Sequence record: PZ445444.1
Source of the DNA: a phage
Length of the DNA: 64,000 bases
Reading direction: 5' to 3' (one strand)
Shown here: piece after piece, positions 10,991 to 18,025 of the stretch
Layout of the letters: every line of letters begins with the position of its first letter
Position numbering within the stretch: position 1 is the first letter of the stretch
The notes under the pieces: model-generated
What the model saw: only the letters and a program-made list of their open reading frames with translations
The model's database searches: none
Told to the model about the DNA's origin: nothing
Position numbers and translations under genes: made by a program

Positions 10991-11073
10991 CAAATACCTA
11001 TTGTAATTTACAGAAGGGGATGCTAAAATAGTGTCTCCTTCTATGTTGTTCAAATAAAATCGGAGATTCCATA

Positions 11074-11439
11074 ATGGAACAAATGAACGATCAAGCGTCG
11101 GTTGCGATGAACGAGCAAGAACAACCTCAAGAATTTTTCTTAGGGTTAAGTAAAGATCAAGTGTCTCTTCTGCTAGTGCTTTCTTCTTTCATGGGAAGAC
11201 TTCAGGAGCTCACACAACAGCCAGAGGCTGAACAATTATTCCAAGCTTTGCGTGAAGAAGAAAAATATCGTCGTTTGGACTATGCCTTAGGTTGGGTAGC
11301 TCAACAACGAGATATGCTGATGGCCCTCTCTGGGACCACAAGTTTTGCAATGGGCCTGCTGGCTCAAGTTCAGGACAAATTAATTCAAGCAGGGTTTGCA
11401 CACACGGCAAACACTAACGAAGAACAAGGAGACAAATAA
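11074..11439 (+). CDS. hypothetical protein (121 aa)
   Basis: RBS GGAGA; stop overlaps the SSB start. Confidence 0.55.
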   Translation: MEQMNDQASVAMNEQEQPQEFFLGLSKDQVSLLLVLSSFMGRLQELTQQPEAEQLFQALREEEKYRRLDYALGWVAQQRDMLMALSGTTSFAMGLLAQVQDKLIQAGFAHTANTNEEQGDK

Positions 11440-12665
11440 TGAGCGTTATTCAACAATTCGCTAACCCGATGAATCCGCGTGAAACTGTTTTACTGGCTCA
11501 CGGCATGATTAAACGTGTCAGCATCAAGCCTATCAAAGGTGCTGATCCTACAACAGGTATTAAAACCACTGTGTGGCAAGGTAAGAAAATTGAATCCAGC
11601 CACACCATCTCTTTACTGATTTCTGAACTGGATTCCTCTGATAACCTGCTTCAAGGTGGTGAAGAAGTTTGGATCAGCATGGGTGATAAGCTGCTTAAAC
11701 CTGGTCATCAAGACTCTGTCTCTGTTAAAATTGATGACAAGTGGGAAACCGTAACGCCGGGATGGATCGTAAATATCCCTTTGAAGGCAAACGAGCATAA
11801 CGGTAAGACCTATTACAAAGGCTCACTGGCTAAGATGGTCAAGCTGGGTGCAGGAGAGGCTCCAGCAGCGACTCAGCAGCAAAAACAGCAACAAGGTGCA
11901 CAATCACAAGGCCAGAAGCAGAAACCTCAGCAGAATGCCAATCAGGACGTTTTACGCATCTATGGTGATGTGACTCAGATTGTTGGCAACGTGGTTACTG
12001 TTAATGACCACAAGATTGGCGAAGGTGCTATGGTTGTAACTGATGAGCAGCTTAAAGACCTGGTGGTAGGTGGTCGTGTTGCAGCCATTGTTGACAAAGA
12101 CACCGGAAACATTATCAGTGGTTTCAAAGCCTATCCCCCTAAGGCAGAGAACGGCACTCAAGGCTCCGGTGGCAAGCGTAAATCCTCTTACGACCCTATC
12201 GGTGTGGAAACGGGGCATAGCATCAATGCGTTGCAGATCATCCTGGATCGCGGGTTTAAGGTAGACGACCCACTGGGCGTGGCTAAAACACTGCACGTAG
12301 TCACCATCGAGCTTAAGAAAGAGTATGCTCAAGCCACCAACCGAACTGAAGATGAAGTAGGTGCCAGTGTCGGTAATGCGGTGTTGAACGCTTGTCGCCG
12401 TATTGACAAGAAAACGAAAGTTGATGATTTTGCAGCGGCAATTACTGCAGAAGCAAAAGATGTCTTGACTAATCTGGCTGAGCCGTTGTACGATTGGATC
12501 AAGAACGGTGCTGGGTCAACTGACCATCAAGAACCTCAGGCTGCCAAACAGGAAGCAGCTCCACAGCAAAACACTGTAGACGCTCCTCCTGTAAATGACG
12601 AGGAAGATGACCCGATGGATCAGAATCCAGCACAGTATGAGTTCGATGACTCGATCCCTTTCTGA
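11439..12665 (+). CDS. single-stranded DNA-binding protein (candidate)
   Basis: 408 aa; Q/G-rich linker; acidic C-terminal tail ending DDSIPF, resembling the SSB C-terminal DDDIPF motif; sits in the replication module. Confidence 0.6.
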   Translation: MSVIQQFANPMNPRETVLLAHGMIKRVSIKPIKGADPTTGIKTTVWQGKKIESSHTISLLISELDSSDNLLQGGEEVWISMGDKLLKPGHQDSVSVKIDDKWETVTPGWIVNIPLKANEHNGKTYYKGSLAKMVKLGAGEAPAATQQQKQQQGAQSQGQKQKPQQNANQDVLRIYGDVTQIVGNVVTVNDHKIGEGAMVVTDEQLKDLVVGGRVAAIVDKDTGNIISGFKAYPPKAENGTQGSGGKRKSSYDPIGVETGHSINALQIILDRGFKVDDPLGVAKTLHVVTIELKKEYAQATNRTEDEVGASVGNAVLNACRRIDKKTKVDDFAAAITAEAKDVLTNLAEPLYDWIKNGAGSTDHQEPQAAKQEAAPQQNTVDAPPVNDEEDDPMDQNPAQYEFDDSIPF

Positions 12666-12673
12666 GGTCAGTT

Positions 12674-13252
12674 ATGAAATGCAAACGTTGTGGAGAGGAC
12701 AAGGAGGCCTCCGACTTCTACACCAGTAACAAATCAACGTGCAAAGAGTGTTGCAAGAAGGCCAGCAGGGAGGCTGACCAATTTGCTAGAGACTCTTCAG
12801 AAAAAGGTGTAATACGTGTGTTGTACAAGGCTCAAAAGTGCAACAGCAAGCAAAGAGGTCACCCTCCTCCGACTTACACCAAAAAAGAGTTTAAGGAGTG
12901 GCTATACCTTAACGGTTACAAAGAGTTGTATGATCAGTGGGTAGCCAGCGGATACGACAAAAGGAAAAAGCCTTCTTGTGACAGGATAGATGATTTCAAA
13001 GGGTACTCTTTTGATAATATCCGTTTAACGACTTGGGGAGAAAATAAAGACAAGCAGACAGAGGATATTCTGTTACATAGAAGCACCAGCGGTAGACGGT
13101 GCAAAAATGTAAGGAGGTTGGACATGAATGGTAACGTTCTTAAAGAATGGGTATCTCACAACTCTTGTAGCAGAGAAACCGGAATATATATTGGTTACTA
13201 CATTCATGAAAAAATTCCAGCTCCAGATGGATACTTATACGAATACTTTTAA
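12674..13252 (+). CDS. zinc-ribbon protein, possible degenerate HNH-type endonuclease
   Basis: N-terminal CxxC...CxxC; segment CDRIDDFKGYSFDNIRL resembles an HNH core with H replaced; followed by the repeated terminator. Confidence 0.4.
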   Translation: MKCKRCGEDKEASDFYTSNKSTCKECCKKASREADQFARDSSEKGVIRVLYKAQKCNSKQRGHPPPTYTKKEFKEWLYLNGYKELYDQWVASGYDKRKKPSCDRIDDFKGYSFDNIRLTTWGENKDKQTEDILLHRSTSGRRCKNVRRLDMNGNVLKEWVSHNSCSRETGIYIGYYIHEKIPAPDGYLYEYF

Positions 13253-13267
13253 CACATAACTAACATA

Positions 13268-13296
13268 GCCCTGCCCGAAAGGGTGGGGCATTTTTG
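13268..13296 (+). terminator. intrinsic terminator, second copy of the 973-1000 element
   Basis: gccctgccc-gaaa-gggtggggc followed by a ttttt run. Confidence 0.6.
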
Positions 13297-13314
13297 TATA
13301 AGGAGATCTGAAAA

Positions 13315-13731
13315 ATGACATTAGAAGATATCATTGTTAAACCTGAGAACTATGACCAATACAACCTGTCAACTCAATCTGTAGACCTTGGATGCGCCAC
13401 GGTCAGTGCGTGGCTGGTTAACGGAAAAGAGCTGGATAAATGCTTAGAAGCTCACATGTCTATTAACAAGTTTCTGGATGAAAATACTCACTGGCTTGAG
13501 GGTGCAGGCGTATATGCTTCATGGTTGGAGAGTATGGGATTCGACTACCAATCTGAAGAGGGGTGGTGGAGCTATTTAGCTATCTGTCCAGAGACGCTAC
13601 AATGCTTCATGAAATATTCTGAAGATTTGGAGTACCGGGCGGTGGTTGATAGTGCTATTGCCCGTTATAGCCGTAAACCTTTTTCCCACGACATTAAAAC
13701 TGTGGAAGAATTTGTTGAAGTTTTCTGTTGA
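13315..13731 (+). CDS. hypothetical protein (138 aa)
   Basis: RBS AAGGAGA upstream of ATG. Confidence 0.55.
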   Translation: MTLEDIIVKPENYDQYNLSTQSVDLGCATVSAWLVNGKELDKCLEAHMSINKFLDENTHWLEGAGVYASWLESMGFDYQSEEGWWSYLAICPETLQCFMKYSEDLEYRAVVDSAIARYSRKPFSHDIKTVEEFVEVFC

Positions 13732-13757
13732 CACAGATTGAAAGGTGTGCAATTATA
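13728..13757 (+). promoter_or_regulatory. sigma70-like promoter
   Basis: TTGACA followed 17-18 nt later by AATTAT/ATTATA; upstream of the three-gene unit ending with the macrodomain gene. Confidence 0.45.
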
Positions 13758-13827
13758 ACTTCATAGAACGGGAGGACGTGATGAACGAAGAAAACTGGGA
13801 TGTATAACTAACAGGAGGCCACTGCCC

Positions 13828-14025
13828 ATGATTTATCGAATCCGTGTAAGAGAAGATGCACCAGGCTGTTACTTTGACTGGCGTGGGTGGTGGTTTATCC
13901 ACCCAATGGATGGACTCACAGATAGAATGCTGGATGCTGCCCTTTATACAGATACCGACATAGAATATAATCTCTATCTGAAGGACGGTATAGATAACGG
14001 CCTGTTTGAAGCAATTCCTGTGTAA
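13828..14025 (+). CDS. hypothetical protein (65 aa)
   Basis: RBS AGGAGG; first gene of the putative operon. Confidence 0.5.
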   Translation: MIYRIRVREDAPGCYFDWRGWWFIHPMDGLTDRMLDAALYTDTDIEYNLYLKDGIDNGLFEAIPV

Positions 14026-14093
14026 GAGACTGTGATAGCTATGTTTTATGATCTTCCTGTAGCACCACCACCTGTTGAACCCGGAGAACTAAG

Positions 14094-14519
14094 ATGATCT
14101 ATGAAATGCCAAAACTGATTCGTGACGATGCCCAAAACGCCCACACCTTTATCATGGGCAAGCGCATGGATATTATTTGTCATAAAGATTTCTGGGAAGG
14201 TAGTTACTTCACAGAATATTTTGGTAAACTGGATAATGGTCTGCTGATCCAGTTCTACACCGATGCGGAAAACAATATCTGCTGGGAGTTCGAAACTGAA
14301 GATATCCATAAACTTTTCACCTTCCTAGGTATTAAGGTTGAGGCCAAGTTTGAAGAAGGCGAGTGCGACGATTGTGGATTCTACGAGGTAACAGATTTCT
14401 ATCTCCCAAGTGGTGAGAACCTTTACTATGAAAGCCACTTCGGCAACTCAAATATGCCACAAGGTTGGGATGAGTTTTTTGAAATTGCGGAAGAGGAGCT
14501 GACATACCGTGATTATTGA
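14094..14519 (+). CDS. hypothetical protein (141 aa), coupled to the macrodomain gene
   Basis: Overlaps the macrodomain start by 11 nt; no recognisable motif. Confidence 0.55.
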   Translation: MIYEMPKLIRDDAQNAHTFIMGKRMDIICHKDFWEGSYFTEYFGKLDNGLLIQFYTDAENNICWEFETEDIHKLFTFLGIKVEAKFEEGECDDCGFYEVTDFYLPSGENLYYESHFGNSNMPQGWDEFFEIAEEELTYRDY

Positions 14520-14967
14520 TACTGTAGCGGGAGATTTAATCTCCCTTTTTAAGAGCGGTGCTGGTCACCTGATCCACGGTTGTAACTGCTTTCATACAAT
14601 GGGTGCAGGCATAGCGAAAGATATTGCCCGTGAGTTCCCTCAAGCACTGGCAGCCGACAAAGAGACTGCCTATGGTAATCTGGACAAGCTGGGTATGTTT
14701 TCTTGTTGGGAGCATTTTGCCAAGAACAGGGTCGTATATGGAATCAACCTGTATACCCAGTTCTACCCAGGGCCCAATGCTGAATACTTCTCAATAATGA
14801 AAGGTTTTGAGCGAGTCAACGAGGTATTCAAAGGTGTGTCATTGCCGTTCTACATTCCTAAAATTGGATGCGGTATTGGCGGTCTAAAGTGGGAACATGT
14901 AGAAGATGTAATTAATCTTGCAACCACAGATATTGATGTGGTTGTAGTAGAGTACAAAAAGTGTTGA
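14509..14967 (+). CDS. macrodomain protein (TARG1/DarG-like ADP-ribose hydrolase, candidate)
   Basis: Segments HGCNCFHTMGAGIAKDIAREFP and FYIPKIGCGIGGLKWEHVEDVI match the two glycine-rich macrodomain motifs of the TARG1/OARD1 type. Confidence 0.7.
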   Translation: MIIDTVAGDLISLFKSGAGHLIHGCNCFHTMGAGIAKDIAREFPQALAADKETAYGNLDKLGMFSCWEHFAKNRVVYGINLYTQFYPGPNAEYFSIMKGFERVNEVFKGVSLPFYIPKIGCGIGGLKWEHVEDVINLATTDIDVVVVEYKKC

Positions 14968-14992
14968 CGACCATCTTCTGAGGTGATATAGT
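14964..14992 (+). promoter_or_regulatory. sigma70-like promoter
   Basis: TTGACG-N17-TATAGT. Confidence 0.55.
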
Positions 14993-15218
14993 TTCCACAA
15001 CAACTAAGAGAGGAGAGCACTGTGGAGACTAAAATCTTAATTCTTGCTGTGGTAGATACAACCGAAGGAGCTATATTCGAATCTGCAGGGGGGTATTTCT
15101 ACCTACCATACGGAAAAAGAACTTCCGAGCCAAGTAAAGATTCAATCCTCAAGGTGTTCCCGTGTGCTTTCTGGCTGGAGATTTTGGTATAAGATTGCAG
15201 AGGATTTGGGAGAGAATT

Positions 15219-15413
15219 ATGAGAAACAAGAAAGAGCTTTACTCTGGTGAGTGGATCAACGATCAACAGGTGGGAGAGGTAACCTGCTTCCGATGTTTTA
15301 CCAGGTACAATCTTAAAACTGCACCAAAAAGTGTTCCAAAGACTGATGGTTATTACATAAAAGAACCTCATTGCCCAAAATGTAAATGCCGATTATACTG
15401 GAGTAACCTGTAA
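15219..15413 (+). CDS. hypothetical Cys-rich protein (64 aa)
   Basis: ATG at 15219 after GGGAGAGAA; CxxC...CxxC pattern suggests a zinc ribbon. Confidence 0.5.
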   Translation: MRNKKELYSGEWINDQQVGEVTCFRCFTRYNLKTAPKSVPKTDGYYIKEPHCPKCKCRLYWSNL

Positions 15414-15417
15414 AAGA

Positions 15418-15445
15418 TTGACATCTGAAAACTGCAGTGTATAAT
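15418..15445 (+). promoter_or_regulatory. sigma70 consensus promoter
   Basis: TTGACA-N16-TATAAT. Confidence 0.6.
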
Positions 15446-15476
15446 ATATGCATAAACTAACAGAGAGTGATGTATT

Positions 15477-15668
15477 ATGGTAATTTTTAACCGGGATGGT
15501 ATCATAGTTAGACAGCACCCCTTCCTTGAATACTATCAAATTGAGCAATGGTGCTACGGGGATTGCAGTCACTCCTATGGGCAAAGTTGGGGATATCGTA
15601 CAGTTTTTGAATCCACAGACCTTGACAAAGTAAGACAGAAAGTTTTAGAACTTATTAACAACAAGTGA
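15477..15668 (+). CDS. hypothetical protein (63 aa)
   Basis: ATG start downstream of the promoter. Confidence 0.5.
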   Translation: MVIFNRDGIIVRQHPFLEYYQIEQWCYGDCSHSYGQSWGYRTVFESTDLDKVRQKVLELINNK

Positions 15669-15678
15669 GCATCGTGCC

Positions 15679-16011
15679 ATGGTAACATTGGAAAGACGTA
15701 AAGCTATCGCCGCCACACTGGCAGACATCTTTTGGGATTGCAACTTAAAAGATACCCGAAATTGTGGCGCATCTGTAGATGTATTATTCCCACGGCCCAC
15801 CATTGTTGCAATGGGCAACCTGCTCGATGTGGTATATGGAGCATGGGACAAGGAAGGTGGATTCTATATCTGGCAACCTGACTACGGGACCTGGAAAGAG
15901 GTTAGTGGTTCTGCGGACTTCACTCCTGCAGAGGCTAAAATGGATGGCTGGAAAATCTATGTCGGTAACGACATGAAGCTGAAAGGCGAGATTGTTTACT
16001 GGTTACCTTAA
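15679..16011 (+). CDS. hypothetical protein (110 aa)
   Basis: ORF in the co-directional small-gene array. Confidence 0.55.
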   Translation: MVTLERRKAIAATLADIFWDCNLKDTRNCGASVDVLFPRPTIVAMGNLLDVVYGAWDKEGGFYIWQPDYGTWKEVSGSADFTPAEAKMDGWKIYVGNDMKLKGEIVYWLP

Positions 16012-16031
16012 GAGAATGCAGGAGATAAGGT

Positions 16032-16277
16032 ATGAACAAAGGGTGGACATTTGTAGACGGCGTTAAAAACATGCCTCTAGGAAAGTATATTGTAGCCATG
16101 GCAGATGAGAATGGCAAGGTGGATTTCGGAGTTTGCGAGGTTGTTCTTGCAGGATCTGGTGACTATGCTCACAAAACTGGGATAATTAACGGTCATTTCT
16201 ACTTTGATTACAACCCTGTTGTGGCGTATATGGCTATGCCAGAGTTAGAGCTCCCAAAGGAGGGTGCAGATGTTTAA
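16032..16277 (+). CDS. hypothetical protein (81 aa)
   Basis: RBS GGAGA upstream of ATG. Confidence 0.55.
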   Translation: MNKGWTFVDGVKNMPLGKYIVAMADENGKVDFGVCEVVLAGSGDYAHKTGIINGHFYFDYNPVVAYMAMPELELPKEGADV

Positions 16278-16467
16278 GCTTAAATCTGCATGGAACATCG
16301 CTGTGGGGGACGAGATCCGTATCCCAGGTGGAAAGACCATTATGAAGATATCTCGTATCGAGTACGAAGGTGATCGTGTATTTCATATCTTTGCAGAGGA
16401 TGGTCGAGAAATTTATATACAGGCAGGCTCTCACATCTATATTCGTAAGAAAGGGGACGACAAATGA
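16264..16467 (+). CDS. hypothetical protein (67 aa)
   Basis: RBS AAGGAGG; overlaps neighbours at both ends. Confidence 0.5.
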   Translation: MQMFKLKSAWNIAVGDEIRIPGGKTIMKISRIEYEGDRVFHIFAEDGREIYIQAGSHIYIRKKGDDK

Positions 16468-16793
16468 CAGAGATCATCATTTCAACTGCAGGGTATGTGT
16501 TCCTGACAATCATTGCACTGACCATTCTGGTTGTGGTATATGGAATTGTTATTCTCCCTATTCTTGAGACAATTAGTTTGTGTCGGTGTTGGAGAAAGGC
16601 TTACGGTCCACAGCCGTGGAAGGACTGGCCCCACCTTGTGCACATAGCGTTCTCTTATGCTTATGATCACGCCAGCAGTGCATGCATAACCGGGTATCAC
16701 GCCCACAACTGGAGCTGGGAAGGGTTGAGGAAATGGAATGTTACAAAGACCATACCTCTGCGCATGTACAAACCTAAAAACAAAGACAGCTGA
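16464..16793 (+). CDS. hypothetical membrane protein (109 aa)
   Basis: N-terminal hydrophobic segment TAGYVFLTIIALTILVVVYGIVILPIL. Confidence 0.55.
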   Translation: MTEIIISTAGYVFLTIIALTILVVVYGIVILPILETISLCRCWRKAYGPQPWKDWPHLVHIAFSYAYDHASSACITGYHAHNWSWEGLRKWNVTKTIPLRMYKPKNKDS

Positions 16794-16799
16794 TACTTG

Positions 16800-17300
16800 A
16801 AAATTTCTGGCATATCAAGTGTAAGGAGGATTTCTAAAATGGATTTCCTCCTTTTGATATTTCACCGGGCTAGATATTTTAAAATTCTTAGAAAATCAGA
16901 AAATGGATCGAAAACTAAAATGGATTTTTCAGAGCAGGCACGACGAGATGAACCACTCATCCTATCGTCTGCACCATATTCCAGACCACCATTACAGATT
17001 TCCCGCACATGCTCACATCCTTCTACTAGAACTTCCCCCACTTACCCTTGACCTTTTATAGTAATAATCCAACCACTACCTTGAAGTTGTGGCGCAGCTT
17101 TCCAAGTACTCGATCTGTTTTTCGTTTCAAAGATTGAATTTTCTGAAAATTTTTCTCGATAAATTTCTCAGTACTCGATCTGTTTTTCGTTTTCTGAATC
17201 GGATTTTCTGGAAATCGTTCCGGCTCTCGACCTGAAATTTTTGGGGACGAAATCGATTTTTCGTTTTCAGAAATGGATTTTTAAAATTTCTATATGGGAA
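16800..17300. repeat. iteron-like direct-repeat region without convincing ORFs
   Basis: Repeated aaaatggat units and two copies of tactcgatctgtttttcgttt plus related cgatttttcgttttc. Confidence 0.5.
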
Positions 17301-17401
17301 TATTTTAGTGGATACTATTTTATAGGAAATTGTTACGGAGGGTAATTAGCGTGCTAATTAAATTTATTAAATGCGAGGAGTTCTCATTTAGAATTTTGAA
17401 T

Positions 17402-17480
17402 GATAATCATTCTCGTTTGCAGAATAACGGGCAGGCCCGGTGATTGTCTCCCGGCCCCTACTGCCCCGGCTTGTTATTAT
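17402..17480 (+). repeat. structured hairpin repeat element, copy 1
   Basis: gataatcattctcgtttgcag ... cccggtgattgtctccc ... ctgcccc; nested inverted repeats around conserved ttgtctccc. Confidence 0.5.
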
Positions 17481-17530
17481 AGTAACACACAGGACAAAGA
17501 AAGCAAGAAGTTTTTGCATAAATTTTTAGA

Positions 17531-17620
17531 CGATAATGATAATCGTTCTCATTTCATGCAGCGCCCATCCCCGGTGGTTGTCTCCCCCGTCACCGGTGCC
17601 TGCCGTCCTTTCGATAGGTA
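17531..17620 (+). repeat. structured hairpin repeat element, copy 2
   Basis: gataatcgttctcatttcatgcag ... ccggtggttgtctcccccgtcaccggtgcctgccgt. Confidence 0.5.
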
Positions 17621-17667
17621 TATTTTGCCACCTAGCGGGGCCGCTGTCAACACTTTTCAAAAAAAAA

Positions 17668-17682
17668 AAAAAATTTCTAACC
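17668..17682. repeat. A homopolymer tract (about 14-15 A)
   Basis: Uninterrupted run of A in a non-coding region. Confidence 0.8.
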
Positions 17683-17816
17683 TGATGCGCTGACCGCTGC
17701 AACCTGGCGGGGCCAGCCTGGCAGGGCCTAACTGACCAGGTAGGAGAGAATGAAGGCTTGCAAACCTGGTGGGCCTATGCTATAGGATAGATAACAATTG
17801 AAGAGGAGGTACAAAA

Positions 17817-17993
17817 ATGGAAGGTAATATGATCCCCCTGGAAAATGTAGCTATTAATGACGCTGAGGCTATCGCCCTGGTTGAAAAGGCTATGGCGGGA
17901 GCGTTGGAACATAAAGAAGAGTACGAAAAAATGATGGTTAACCTGGCAGGGGCGGCGGCTGGAGAATTCTACCCAAAAAATAATTTTAACTAA
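17817..17993 (+). CDS. hypothetical small protein (58 aa)
   Basis: ATG preceded by GAAGAGGAGG; below the ORF-track length cutoff. Confidence 0.45.
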   Translation: MEGNMIPLENVAINDAEAIALVEKAMAGALEHKEEYEKMMVNLAGAAAGEFYPKNNFN

Positions 17994-17996
17994 TGG

Positions 17997-18025
17997 TTGA
18001 CAGCTCGGACAGTTCTTGTTATTCT
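17997..18025 (+). promoter_or_regulatory. sigma70-like promoter
   Basis: TTGACA-N17-TATTCT. Confidence 0.45.

What the first reader, a model, noticed from the sequence alone, without database searches (positions are those of the whole stretch)
13728..14992. Three-gene operon ending in a TARG1/DarG-like macrodomain: candidate anti-ADP-ribosylation counter-defence module
ORF 14509-14967 carries both glycine-rich macrodomain signatures in the TARG1/DarG arrangement (HGCNCFHTMGAGIAKDIAREFP and FYIPKIGCGIGGLKWEHVEDVI). It is translationally coupled to an upstream 141-aa protein with no recognisable fold (14094-14519) and a 65-aa protein (13828-14025). One sigma70-like promoter (13728) precedes the unit and the next promoter (14964) follows it. 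Macrodomains of this type remove ADP-ribose from DNA or protein, so a phage copy plausibly reverses host ADP-ribosylating immunity such as DarT, or a phage-own modification. The two partner proteins are uncharacterised and may define a new module.
Basis: partly seen in the sequence, partly recalled or inferred. Interest (0 to 1): 0.85.

Follow-up and report, generated by a model that had tools for sequence, protein, structure and literature searches.

The report
Phage macrodomain that counters DarT immunity
This rV5-like E. coli phage carries an ordinary copy of the widespread phage Tk.4/AdfM macrodomain gene, whose T4 relative protects phage DNA from the bacterial DarT2 ADP-ribosylating toxin; the two small genes in front of it are not conserved partners.

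Summary
The sequence features are all present: ORFs 13828-14025, 14094-14519 and 14509-14967, an 11-nt overlap, and promoter-like sites at 13728 and 14964. The window is a Vequintavirus (99.3% identical to phage Murica). The 152-aa protein is a confident macrodomain of the TARG1/DarG/Poa1p/SCO6735 class. It is a full-length homologue (39% identity, E 1e-43) of T4 Tk.4, which a 2025 preprint named AdfM because its knockout sensitises T4 to DarTG2. So the anti-DarT idea is well supported, but it is already known for this family, and homologues occur in 2,830 phage records.

- **Catalytic residues.** The TARG1 Lys/Asp and the DarG Lys are absent. The family has an invariant Gln (Q84) plus H23 and N26. 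This matches the SCO6735-type active site, which cleaves thymidine-linked ADP-ribose.
- **No conserved module.** 77 of 80 diverse macro loci lack both partner genes. In Krischvirus the 141-aa homologue lies 9.4 kb from tk.4. In another Vequintavirinae-like lineage the gene order differs.

All three genes are non-essential in phage Bas54. Verdict: a new member of a known kind, of low interest.

The parts
13728..13756 (+). Sigma-70-like promoter candidate (TTGACA-17-AATTAT with TG extended -10). The -35 overlaps the stop codon of the upstream 138-aa ORF.
   Evidence: 10/12. Hexamers are invariant and the spacer is variable across window, L007, Bas54 and Murica. Activity was not tested.
13828..14025 (+). 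65-aa ORF of unknown function (phrog_9903), with an AGGAGG Shine-Dalgarno sequence 8 nt upstream.
   Evidence: No Pfam, NCBIfam or PADLOC hit. Homologues occur only in Vequintavirus and, at about 52% identity, in phi92-like phages, where the gene is about 37 kb from the macro gene and on the other strand. The Bas54 orthologue bas54_0090 is non-essential.
14094..14519 (+). 141-aa ORF of unknown function (phrog_8157). Its conserved C-terminal core is EGECDxCGxYxVxDxxLPSGxxxYxExHFGNxNxPxxWxEFFE.
14509..14967 (+). 152-aa stand-alone macrodomain, a Tk.4/AdfM-family ADP-ribosylglycohydrolase candidate. It has a GTG start overlapping the upstream ORF by 11 nt. Key residues are H23, N26, G32-A33-G34, Q84 and G120-C-G-I-G-G125.
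14529..14550 (+). Terminator-like hairpin inside the macro CDS: GGGAGAT-TTA-ATCTCCC followed by TTTTT.
   Evidence: -10.1 kcal/mol. The same position in T4 and Krischvirus tk.4 has GGGCGAT-NNN-(A/G)TCGCCC, that is, a compensatory A:T to C:G change. Function is unknown.
14964..14992 (+). Sigma-70-like promoter candidate (TTGACG-17-TATAGT with TG) overlapping the macro stop codon. It would drive the downstream small ORFs.
   Evidence: In L007 the -35 is TTGACA and GGTGnTATAGT is kept, despite six spacer substitutions.

Best explanation
ORF 14509-14967 encodes an orphan, antitoxin-like macrodomain of the phage Tk.4/AdfM family. It sits in the early, host-RNA-polymerase-transcribed region just downstream of the phage replication genes. 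The enzyme most likely binds ADP-ribose attached to thymidine in single-stranded phage DNA, placed there by a host DarT2 toxin, and hydrolyses the N-glycosidic link. That would restore replicable DNA and neutralise DarTG2 abortive-infection defence. Catalysis is predicted to be of the SCO6735 type: Gln84, held in place by Asn26, positions the distal ribose, and a water molecule does the chemistry. It is not the Lys-based chemistry of TARG1 or DarG. The 65-aa and 141-aa genes upstream are separate, fast-evolving accessory early genes. They share a promoter region with the macro gene in this genus but are not functional partners. What is shown here: homology, fold, conserved active-site residues and gene context. 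What is shown elsewhere: the T4 Tk.4 knockout phenotype and the SCO6735 and PhiKZ AdfM biochemistry. What is inferred: that this protein has the same activity and target.
For: It is a full-length homologue of T4 Tk.4 (39% identity, E 1e-43), and the gene is annotated tk.4 in rV5. T4 tk.4 was the single HIDEN-SEQ hit under DarTG2, and a clean knockout sensitises T4. The macro fold is confident and the nearest solved structures are TARG1, Poa1p, DarG, BT1257 and SCO6735. DarG models match the N-terminal macro part (NCBIfam 1.7e-12, PADLOC 1.4e-13). H23, N26 and Q84 are invariant or nearly so in 116, 34 and 54-sequence alignments. They align to SCO6735 H24, N27 and Q85. SCO6735 cleaves thymidine-linked ADP-ribose, rescues cells from DarT, and is killed by Q85A and nearly so by N27S (PMC9411070). 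The gene lies in a same-strand early region after helicase, primase, polymerase and SSB genes, with sigma-70-like promoters. Bas54 orthologues of all three genes tolerate transposon insertions on K-12, as expected for conditional accessory genes. Partner genes are absent from 77 of 80 macro loci.
Against: No experiment exists on a Vequintavirus protein, and identity to T4 Tk.4 is only 39%. The hydrolytic mechanism of T4 Tk.4 is itself only inferred in the preprint. The one biochemically characterised phage AdfM (PhiKZ gp104) has the DarG-like Lys (K78), not Gln. SCO6735-type enzymes also act on protein-linked and uracil-linked ADP-ribose, so the physiological substrate could differ. In two Bas54 screens on clinical isolates the macro gene was not conditionally essential, at least in the comparison I saw. 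A terminator-like hairpin at the 5' end of the gene leaves its expression route unclear.
Confidence: 0.72

Rival explanations
1. The three genes form a functional counter-defence module in which the 65-aa and 141-aa proteins work with the macrodomain, for example by targeting it, sensing the modification or inhibiting the toxin.
For: The 141-aa and macro ORFs overlap by 11 nt and share a promoter region. All three genes stay within about 2 kb in a second, divergent Vequintavirinae-like lineage (L008, L009) where the partners are only 40-43% identical.
Against: In L008 and L009 the order is macro, then 65, then 141, with other ORFs between, so there is no conserved coupling. 77 of 80 diverse macro loci have neither partner within 3 kb. 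The macro gene is found in 2,830 phage records, against 176 and 172 for the partners. Krischvirus has the 141-aa homologue next to dam, 9.4 kb and about 26 genes from tk.4. Phi92-like phages have the 65-aa homologue about 37 kb from their macro gene. T4 Tk.4 works without either partner. Neither partner matches any defence or anti-defence model.
Confidence: 0.08
2. The macrodomain acts mainly on something other than DarT2-modified DNA. Candidates are ADP-ribosylated proteins or RNA (made by host toxins or by a phage-encoded transferase), or small molecules such as ADP-ribose-1''-phosphate or O-acetyl-ADP-ribose, which is the origin of the old 'phosphatase' annotation.
For: The N-terminal motif IH[GS]CNC is shared with yeast Poa1p, an ADP-ribose-1''-phosphatase. 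Many records name the gene 'phosphatase'. SCO6735 also removes protein-linked and uracil-linked ADP-ribose. T4, which carries Tk.4, also encodes the transferases Alt, ModA and ModB (established knowledge).
Against: The only genetic phenotype known for the family is DarTG2 sensitivity. The 'phosphatase' label is an inherited motif annotation, not a tested activity (note). No ADP-ribosyltransferase is annotated in the 30 kb around the gene in a close relative, although the whole genome was not searched.
Confidence: 0.15
3. The protein neutralises DarT mainly by binding and inhibiting the toxin, or by sequestering ADP-ribosylated DNA, rather than by hydrolysis. On this view the loss of the Lys marks a non-catalytic binder.
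For: The catalytic Lys of DarG and TARG1 is absent. Catalytically dead SCO6735 Q85A still inhibits DarT in vitro.
Against: Gln at this position is required for hydrolysis in SCO6735 and is invariant here together with Asn26 and His23, the signature of an active SCO6735-type site. The protein lacks the C-terminal DarT-binding domain of DarG: it is 152 aa and matches positions 4-144 of the 338-position DarG model.
Confidence: 0.05

Closest known systems
T4 Tk.4 = AdfM (anti-DarT factor macrodomain; bioRxiv 10.1101/2025.11.20.689424)
   Same: Stand-alone macrodomain of about 150 aa. It is alignable end to end (39% identity, E 1e-43), with identical HGCNCFHTMG, NLYTQF and P[KR]IG[CA]GIG motifs and the same Gln at the TARG1 K84 position. 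It is an early gene that overlaps the ORF upstream of it. It has a hairpin at the same place in the 5' end of the CDS.
   Different: The genomic neighbours differ: vs and tk.3 in T4, against the 141-aa ORF and a 56-aa ORF here. This copy has a GTG start. There is no experimental test of the Vequintavirus protein.
Streptomyces coelicolor SCO6735 / Bacteroides BT1257 subclass of ALC1-like macrodomains (PDB 5E3B, 2FG1; PMC9411070)
   Same: The active-site residues His, Asn and Gln (SCO6735 H24, N27, Q85) align with H23, N26 and Q84. The second glycine loop is GCGxxGG in both. Neither has the TARG1 Asp. SCO6735 cleaves thymidine-linked ADP-ribose and rescues cells from DarT.
   Different: Sequence identity is only about 22%. 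Gly24 stands where SCO6735 has Val25. The local motif is NxYTQ rather than NMIGQH. SCO6735 is a cellular SOS-regulated gene, not a phage gene. Whether the longer mobile loop of SCO6735 is present was not examined.
DarG antitoxin of DarTG2 (PDB 5M3I, 5M31, 7OMU)
   Same: Same macro class. It was the best single-sequence PDB hit (Mtb DarG, 1.4e-5). The conserved Asn (DarG N22) and the GxGxGGL-type loop lacking the Asp are shared. The presumed substrate is the same.
   Different: The catalytic Lys (K80 in T. aquaticus) is replaced by Gln. There is no C-terminal DarT-binding domain and no adjacent darT. The score is far below the NCBIfam DarG cut-off (47 against 250 bits).
PhiKZ gp104 AdfM (Cell Rep 2026, PMC13309987)
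   Same: A phage-encoded stand-alone macrodomain that counters DarTG2 by removing ADP-ribose from DNA.
   Different: The PhiKZ protein keeps the DarG-like Lys (K78) and is imported into the phage nucleus. It is a different lineage of the same class, and direct sequence similarity to it was not measured here.
Human TARG1/OARD1 (PDB 4J5R)
   Same: It was the top structural match (Foldseek E 2e-10, TM 0.74-0.81) and shares both glycine-rich loops.
   Different: The catalytic dyad K84/D125 is replaced by Q84/G124.

Membership tests
Macrodomain superfamily (Pfam PF01661) | Profile match above the curated threshold and a macro alpha/beta fold with two glycine-rich ADP-ribose-binding loops | tested here: met
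   Pfam score 25.9 bits against a cut-off of 22. AF2 pLDDT 94.5. 182 PDB matches at E<=1e-3; the 50 listed are macrodomains or serine hydrolases designed on a macrodomain scaffold.
ALC1-like / TARG1-like macrodomain class | Closest relatives by sequence profile and by fold are TARG1, DarG, Poa1p, SCO6735 and BT1257, rather than the MacroD, PARG or viral X-domain types | tested here: met
   Profile search against the PDB: BT1257 4.7e-15, TARG1 3.7e-14, SCO6735 8.4e-14, DarG 2.3e-13, Poa1p 3.3e-12. Foldseek ranks 1-21 are these same proteins; viral X-domains rank lower.
TARG1 (OARD1) orthologues | Catalytic Lys84-Asp125 dyad | tested here: not met
   The K84 column is Gln in 114 of 116 family members and in the query. 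The D125 column is Gly or Ala.
DarG antitoxin (DarTG2) | Catalytic Lys (K80 in T. aquaticus DarG) in the macrodomain | tested here: not met
   The query's Q84 aligns to the Lys of Mtb DarG in FPTKKHW.
DarG antitoxin (DarTG2) | C-terminal DarT-binding domain, adjacent darT gene, and a score above the equivalog cut-off | tested here: not met
   The protein is 152 aa and matches positions 4-144 of a 338-position model, scoring 47.3 bits against a cut-off of 250. The three upstream ORFs tested (138, 65 and 141 aa) give no DarT hit in PADLOC.
SCO6735/BT1257-type Gln macrodomains | Gln at the TARG1-K84/DarG-K80 position, stabilised by the conserved Asn (N27), with His24 in the first strand | tested here: met
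   hmmalign places H23, N26 and Q84 opposite SCO6735 H24, N27 and Q85 and opposite the BT1257 equivalents. N26 and Q84 are invariant in the family alignments, and H23 is invariant or nearly so.
SCO6735/BT1257-type Gln macrodomains | Extended mobile loop and Val25 backbone-positioned water (features the authors call SCO6735-specific) | tested here: inconclusive
   The position equivalent to Val25 is Gly24. Loop length was not compared on coordinates.
Phage AdfM / Tk.4 family | Full-length homology to T4 Tk.4 with shared invariant motifs | tested here: met
   BLASTP gives 39% identity over 153 columns, E 1e-43. phrog_335 matches at 1.4e-59. tblastn links the query to tk.4 genes of many T-even phages at E 1e-30 to 1e-35.
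Phage AdfM / Tk.4 family | Protects the phage against DarTG2; removes ADP-ribose from thymidine in ssDNA | not testable with these tools
   The evidence is by analogy only: the T4 knockout phenotype, PhiKZ AdfM biochemistry and SCO6735 biochemistry.
   Only 3 of 80 macro loci have the partners, and 2 of those 3 have a different order. The partners are unlinked to the macro gene in Krischvirus and in phi92-like phages.

The most novel reading that the evidence does not exclude
The huge Tk.4-type branch of phage macrodomains, including this one, may be lysine-less, Gln-dependent hydrolases of the SCO6735 kind with a broader range than DarG (thymidine-ADPr on DNA, uracil-ADPr on RNA, possibly protein-ADPr). 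One small early gene would then disarm several ADP-ribosylating defences. Its expression may be gated by a conserved hairpin plus U-tract placed 20 nt inside the coding sequence in T4-like, Krischvirus and Vequintavirus genomes. Separately, the 141-aa CxxC...H protein could be an independent anti-defence factor.
Probability: 0.3. Interest if true: 0.45.

Novelty: new member of a known kind. Interest (0 to 1): 0.25.

Why it matters
It extends the experimentally defined AdfM (Tk.4) anti-DarTG2 function from T4 to the rV5-like Vequintavirinae. These are broad-host-range phages of interest for therapy and for O157 biocontrol, so the result predicts they are naturally resistant to DarTG2.

The useful mechanistic point is that this phage family carries the Gln-type (SCO6735-like) active site rather than the DarG or TARG1 lysine. 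Neither phage AdfM paper that I read comments on this. It can be tested directly with Q84A and N26A mutants.

It does not open a new class of system, and the proposed three-gene module does not hold up.

Tried and rejected
1. **Families for the partner proteins.** Pfam, NCBIfam, PADLOC and PHROGs gave only function-unknown PHROGs for the 65-, 141- and 138-aa proteins.

2. **Remote homologues of the 141-aa protein.** The word-index search found 4 proteins. A full HMMER scan of 1.8 billion representatives found 13. Three of these are long eukaryotic Cys-rich or repeat proteins (VWD/TIL, F-box, Ig). I reject them as compositional false positives.

4. **The 65-aa protein.** The homologue search found 6 close relatives only.

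5. **RNA families.** An Rfam scan of 12500-16000 at E<=1 found nothing.

6. **Repeats.** The repeat search of 13250-15100 found nothing meaningful.

7. **Krischvirus neighbour.** I tested whether the gene upstream of Krischvirus tk.4 is a diverged 141-aa homologue. It is not (E=34).

8. **T4 neighbours.** I tested whether T4 tk.1, tk.2 or tk.3 carry the Zn-binding domain seen downstream here. They do not; they match DUF7202 and DUF7438.

9. **bas54_0108.** This Bas54 gene is conditionally essential in strain CFE303. I checked whether it belongs to this locus. It lies 16 genes downstream, so it does not.

10. **Not attempted.** I did not search the whole genome for phage ADP-ribosyltransferases, because there is no local profile library and the window covers only part of the genome.
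Full report
**Identity of the window and check of the observation**

Region 13300-15100 is 99.3% identical to Escherichia phage Murica and 96-97% identical to rV5 and many other Vequintavirus genomes. The two quoted glycine-rich peptides are present verbatim.

The GTG start overlaps the 141-aa ORF by 11 nt and follows a GAGGAG. Homologues from T4 and Krischvirus align from residue 1, so the start is credible. The consensus scan recovers both proposed promoters, each 10/12 with a TG extended -10. In L007, a more divergent relative, the hexamers are kept while the spacers accumulate substitutions. That is the pattern expected of real promoters.

The 'operon' is less certain, for three reasons (all):
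- No terminator follows the macro gene.
- Other 10/12 promoter-like matches lie inside the unit.
- A terminator-like hairpin sits within the first 40 nt of the macro CDS.

**What the 152-aa protein is**

It passes the Pfam Macro threshold and matches phrog_335 at 1.4e-59. It also matches the macro part of the DarG models, but far below the equivalog cut-off.

A profile of 34 homologues hits only TARG1-class structures in the PDB: BT1257, TARG1, SCO6735, Mtb and T. aquaticus DarG, and Poa1p, at 5e-15 to 3e-12. An AF2 model built on 54 sequences has pLDDT 94.5. Its top 21 Foldseek matches are those same proteins, with TM 0.71-0.76.

**Relation to known phage proteins**

tblastn finds homologues in 2,830 of 50,697 phage records. 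In T-even phages the hit is the gene tk.4, and rV5 annotators already called this ORF Tk.4. Direct comparison with T4 Tk.4 gives 39% identity over the whole length, E 1e-43.

A November 2025 preprint found tk.4 to be the single T4 gene conditionally required on a DarTG2 host. The authors confirmed this with a clean knockout and renamed the gene adfM. An independent 2026 paper showed that the PhiKZ macrodomain gp104, also named AdfM, removes ADP-ribose from DarT2-modified DNA and protects chimalliviruses. A published survey found macrodomains in 41% of myoviruses.

It is not new.

**Catalytic residues**

They are absent.
- In a 116-sequence alignment, the column of TARG1 K84 is Gln in 114 sequences, within an invariant NxYTQ motif. 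The column of D125 is Gly or Ala.
- Aligning reference fragments to the family HMM places Q84 opposite TARG1 K84, the Mtb DarG Lys, and Gln85 of SCO6735 and BT1257.
- The same alignment places N26 opposite SCO6735 N27 and the DarG Asn, and H23 opposite SCO6735 H24.
- T4 Tk.4 has the same Gln.

The SCO6735 study shows that such a lysine-less enzyme cleaves thymidine-linked ADP-ribose efficiently and rescues cells from DarT. Q85A inactivates it and N27S nearly does. The authors propose that the Gln positions the distal ribose while a backbone-held water donates the proton.

The most likely mechanism here is therefore SCO6735-like, not TARG1- or DarG-like. SCO6735 also acts on protein-linked and uracil-linked ADP-ribose, so a wider substrate range cannot be excluded.

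**The two 'partner' proteins**

Neither matches any Pfam, NCBIfam or PADLOC model.

The 141-aa family is tiny:
- 4 proteins by word-index search.
- 13 by a full HMMER scan of 1.8 billion representatives, three of which are spurious eukaryotic repeat proteins.
- The conserved core is C-terminal, a CxxC turn followed by ExHFGN.

Linkage to the macro gene does not hold outside this genus:
- Of 80 diverse macro loci from viral contigs, 77 have neither partner within 3 kb.
- In Krischvirus the macro protein is 68% identical and sits at the canonical vs-tk.4-tk position. The 141-aa homologue (Phi1 ORF064, 39% identity) lies 9.4 kb away, immediately upstream of dam.
- In the phi92-like phage ZYD, the 65-aa homologue is about 37 kb from the macro gene and on the other strand.
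- In L008 and L009, an uncultured Vequintavirinae-like lineage, all three genes lie within about 2 kb. However, the order is macro, then 65, then 141, with other ORFs between them. The partners are 40-43% identical while the macro protein is about 80% identical.

This looks like a shared pool of accessory early genes being shuffled, not a coupled module.

Published transposon data for Bas54 (MaxBurger) bear on this. Its proteins are 94.7-98.5% identical to those here. In that data bas54_0090, 0091 and 0092 are all non-essential on K-12, with 91-100% of TA sites hit. None was depleted in the clinical-isolate comparison I saw.

**Context**

The locus lies at the end of a same-strand block encoding helicase, methyltransferases, primase, DNA polymerase and SSB. 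It is followed by dozens of small early ORFs with frequent sigma-70-like promoters. Early expression next to the replication genes fits an enzyme that must keep single-stranded replication intermediates free of DarT2 adducts. This is inference.

**Verdict**

It is wrong about the catalytic residues, the module and the novelty. The locus is a new, untested member of the known Tk.4/AdfM family. The only mildly novel points are the Gln-type active site of this whole phage branch and a conserved hairpin inside the 5' end of the gene.

**Side observations**

These are listed separately in the report:
- The hairpin, with a compensatory change between Vequintavirus and T-even phages.
- A homing-endonuclease insertion at 12638-13246.
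- A chimeric protein joining a homing-endonuclease N-terminus to the C-terminus of the 141-aa family.
- A natural deletion that fuses the 141-aa and macro ORFs.
- A Zn-binding small gene that travels with the macro gene between Vequintavirus and Krischvirus.

Noticed in passing
window 14529-14550 (+): A terminator-like hairpin, GGGAGAT-TTA-ATCTCCC plus TTTTT, lies 20 nt inside the macro CDS. The same codons in T4 tk.4 (GGGCGAT-ATT-GTCGCCC-TTTTC) and in Krischvirus tk.4 (GGGCGAT-CTC-ATCGCCC-TGTTT) form the same stem. The A:T to C:G change is compensatory: Gly GGA/GGC is synonymous, and Ser TCC becomes Ala GCC. About 18 of 71 homologue genes examined have the stem. Stem third-codon positions are invariant among diverged T4-like sequences, while loop and flanking codons vary. 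Other annotators marked a terminator here in Murica, fPS-2 and NBG1. It may be an attenuator, a 3'-end stabiliser for upstream genes or a translation element. It may also be a by-product of the GD(I/L)(V/I)(A/S)LF peptide.
   Followed up: partly
window 12638-13246; ORF 12674-13252 (+): A 609-nt insertion relative to Murica, where 22 nt occupy the site. It carries a 192-aa HNH/endonuclease-VII-like ORF (phrog_1035, 2e-32) between the SSB gene and the 138-aa ORF, and it replaces the last 28 nt of the SSB gene. Bas54 has an 87%-identical 'putative homing endonuclease' at the same site, whereas Bas55 and Murica lack it. It is a mobile free-standing homing endonuclease.
   Followed up: partly
protein P0136 (metagenomic; relative of window 14094-14519): A 142-aa chimera. 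Its N-terminal roughly 87 residues resemble the homing endonuclease of window 12674-13252, and its C-terminal roughly 55 residues are the conserved core of the 141-aa family. This suggests a homing-endonuclease insertion or recombination within a homologue of the 141-aa gene.
   Followed up: no
protein P0017 (135.5-kb contig); corresponds to window about 14094-14967: A natural deletion variant. Residues 1-55 of the 141-aa protein are fused in frame to macro residues from about 85 onward, through a shared QFY (CAGTTCTAC) microhomology. The deletion removes the N-terminal catalytic half of the macrodomain. So at least one wild Vequintavirus-like genome has lost an intact macro gene.
   Followed up: partly
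window 15219-15413 (+) (listed as ORF 15162-15413): A 64-aa protein with the Pfam 'Phage zinc binding domain' PF23903 (8e-23). The real start is probably Met20 of the 83-aa ORF, as PHROG and Murica annotation indicate. Its Krischvirus homologue is 78% identical and lies immediately downstream of, and overlapping, tk.4. Weaker homologues lie 0.6-1.7 kb downstream of the macro gene in 11 further loci. T4 itself lacks it. The macro gene and this gene may have moved together between Krischvirus and Vequintavirus.
   Followed up: partly
L003 2501-2932 / L006 20357-20788 (phage Phi1 ORF064): The Krischvirus homologue of the 141-aa protein ends exactly where the Dam DNA adenine methyltransferase gene starts, with a shared base. 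This is a different tight gene pairing from the one seen in the window.
   Followed up: no
L008 and L009 (IMG/VR contigs of 139-141 kb): An uncultured Vequintavirinae-like lineage; only 8-19% of the region has more than 80% DNA identity to any cultured phage. The macro protein is about 80% identical to the window's, but the 65-aa and 141-aa homologues are only 40-43% identical and lie downstream of the macro gene. The uneven divergence suggests recent horizontal replacement of the macro gene.
   Followed up: partly
window 15418-15445 (+) and elsewhere: A perfect 12/12 sigma-70 consensus promoter (TTGACA-16-TATAAT) lies just downstream of the Zn-binding gene. Many further TTGACA-type sites sit in intergenic positions between 9.7 and 27.4 kb of the window. 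In 11000-18000 the scan found 23 promoter-like sites, against 12.3 +/- 4.2 expected. This fits a densely promoted early region.
   Followed up: no
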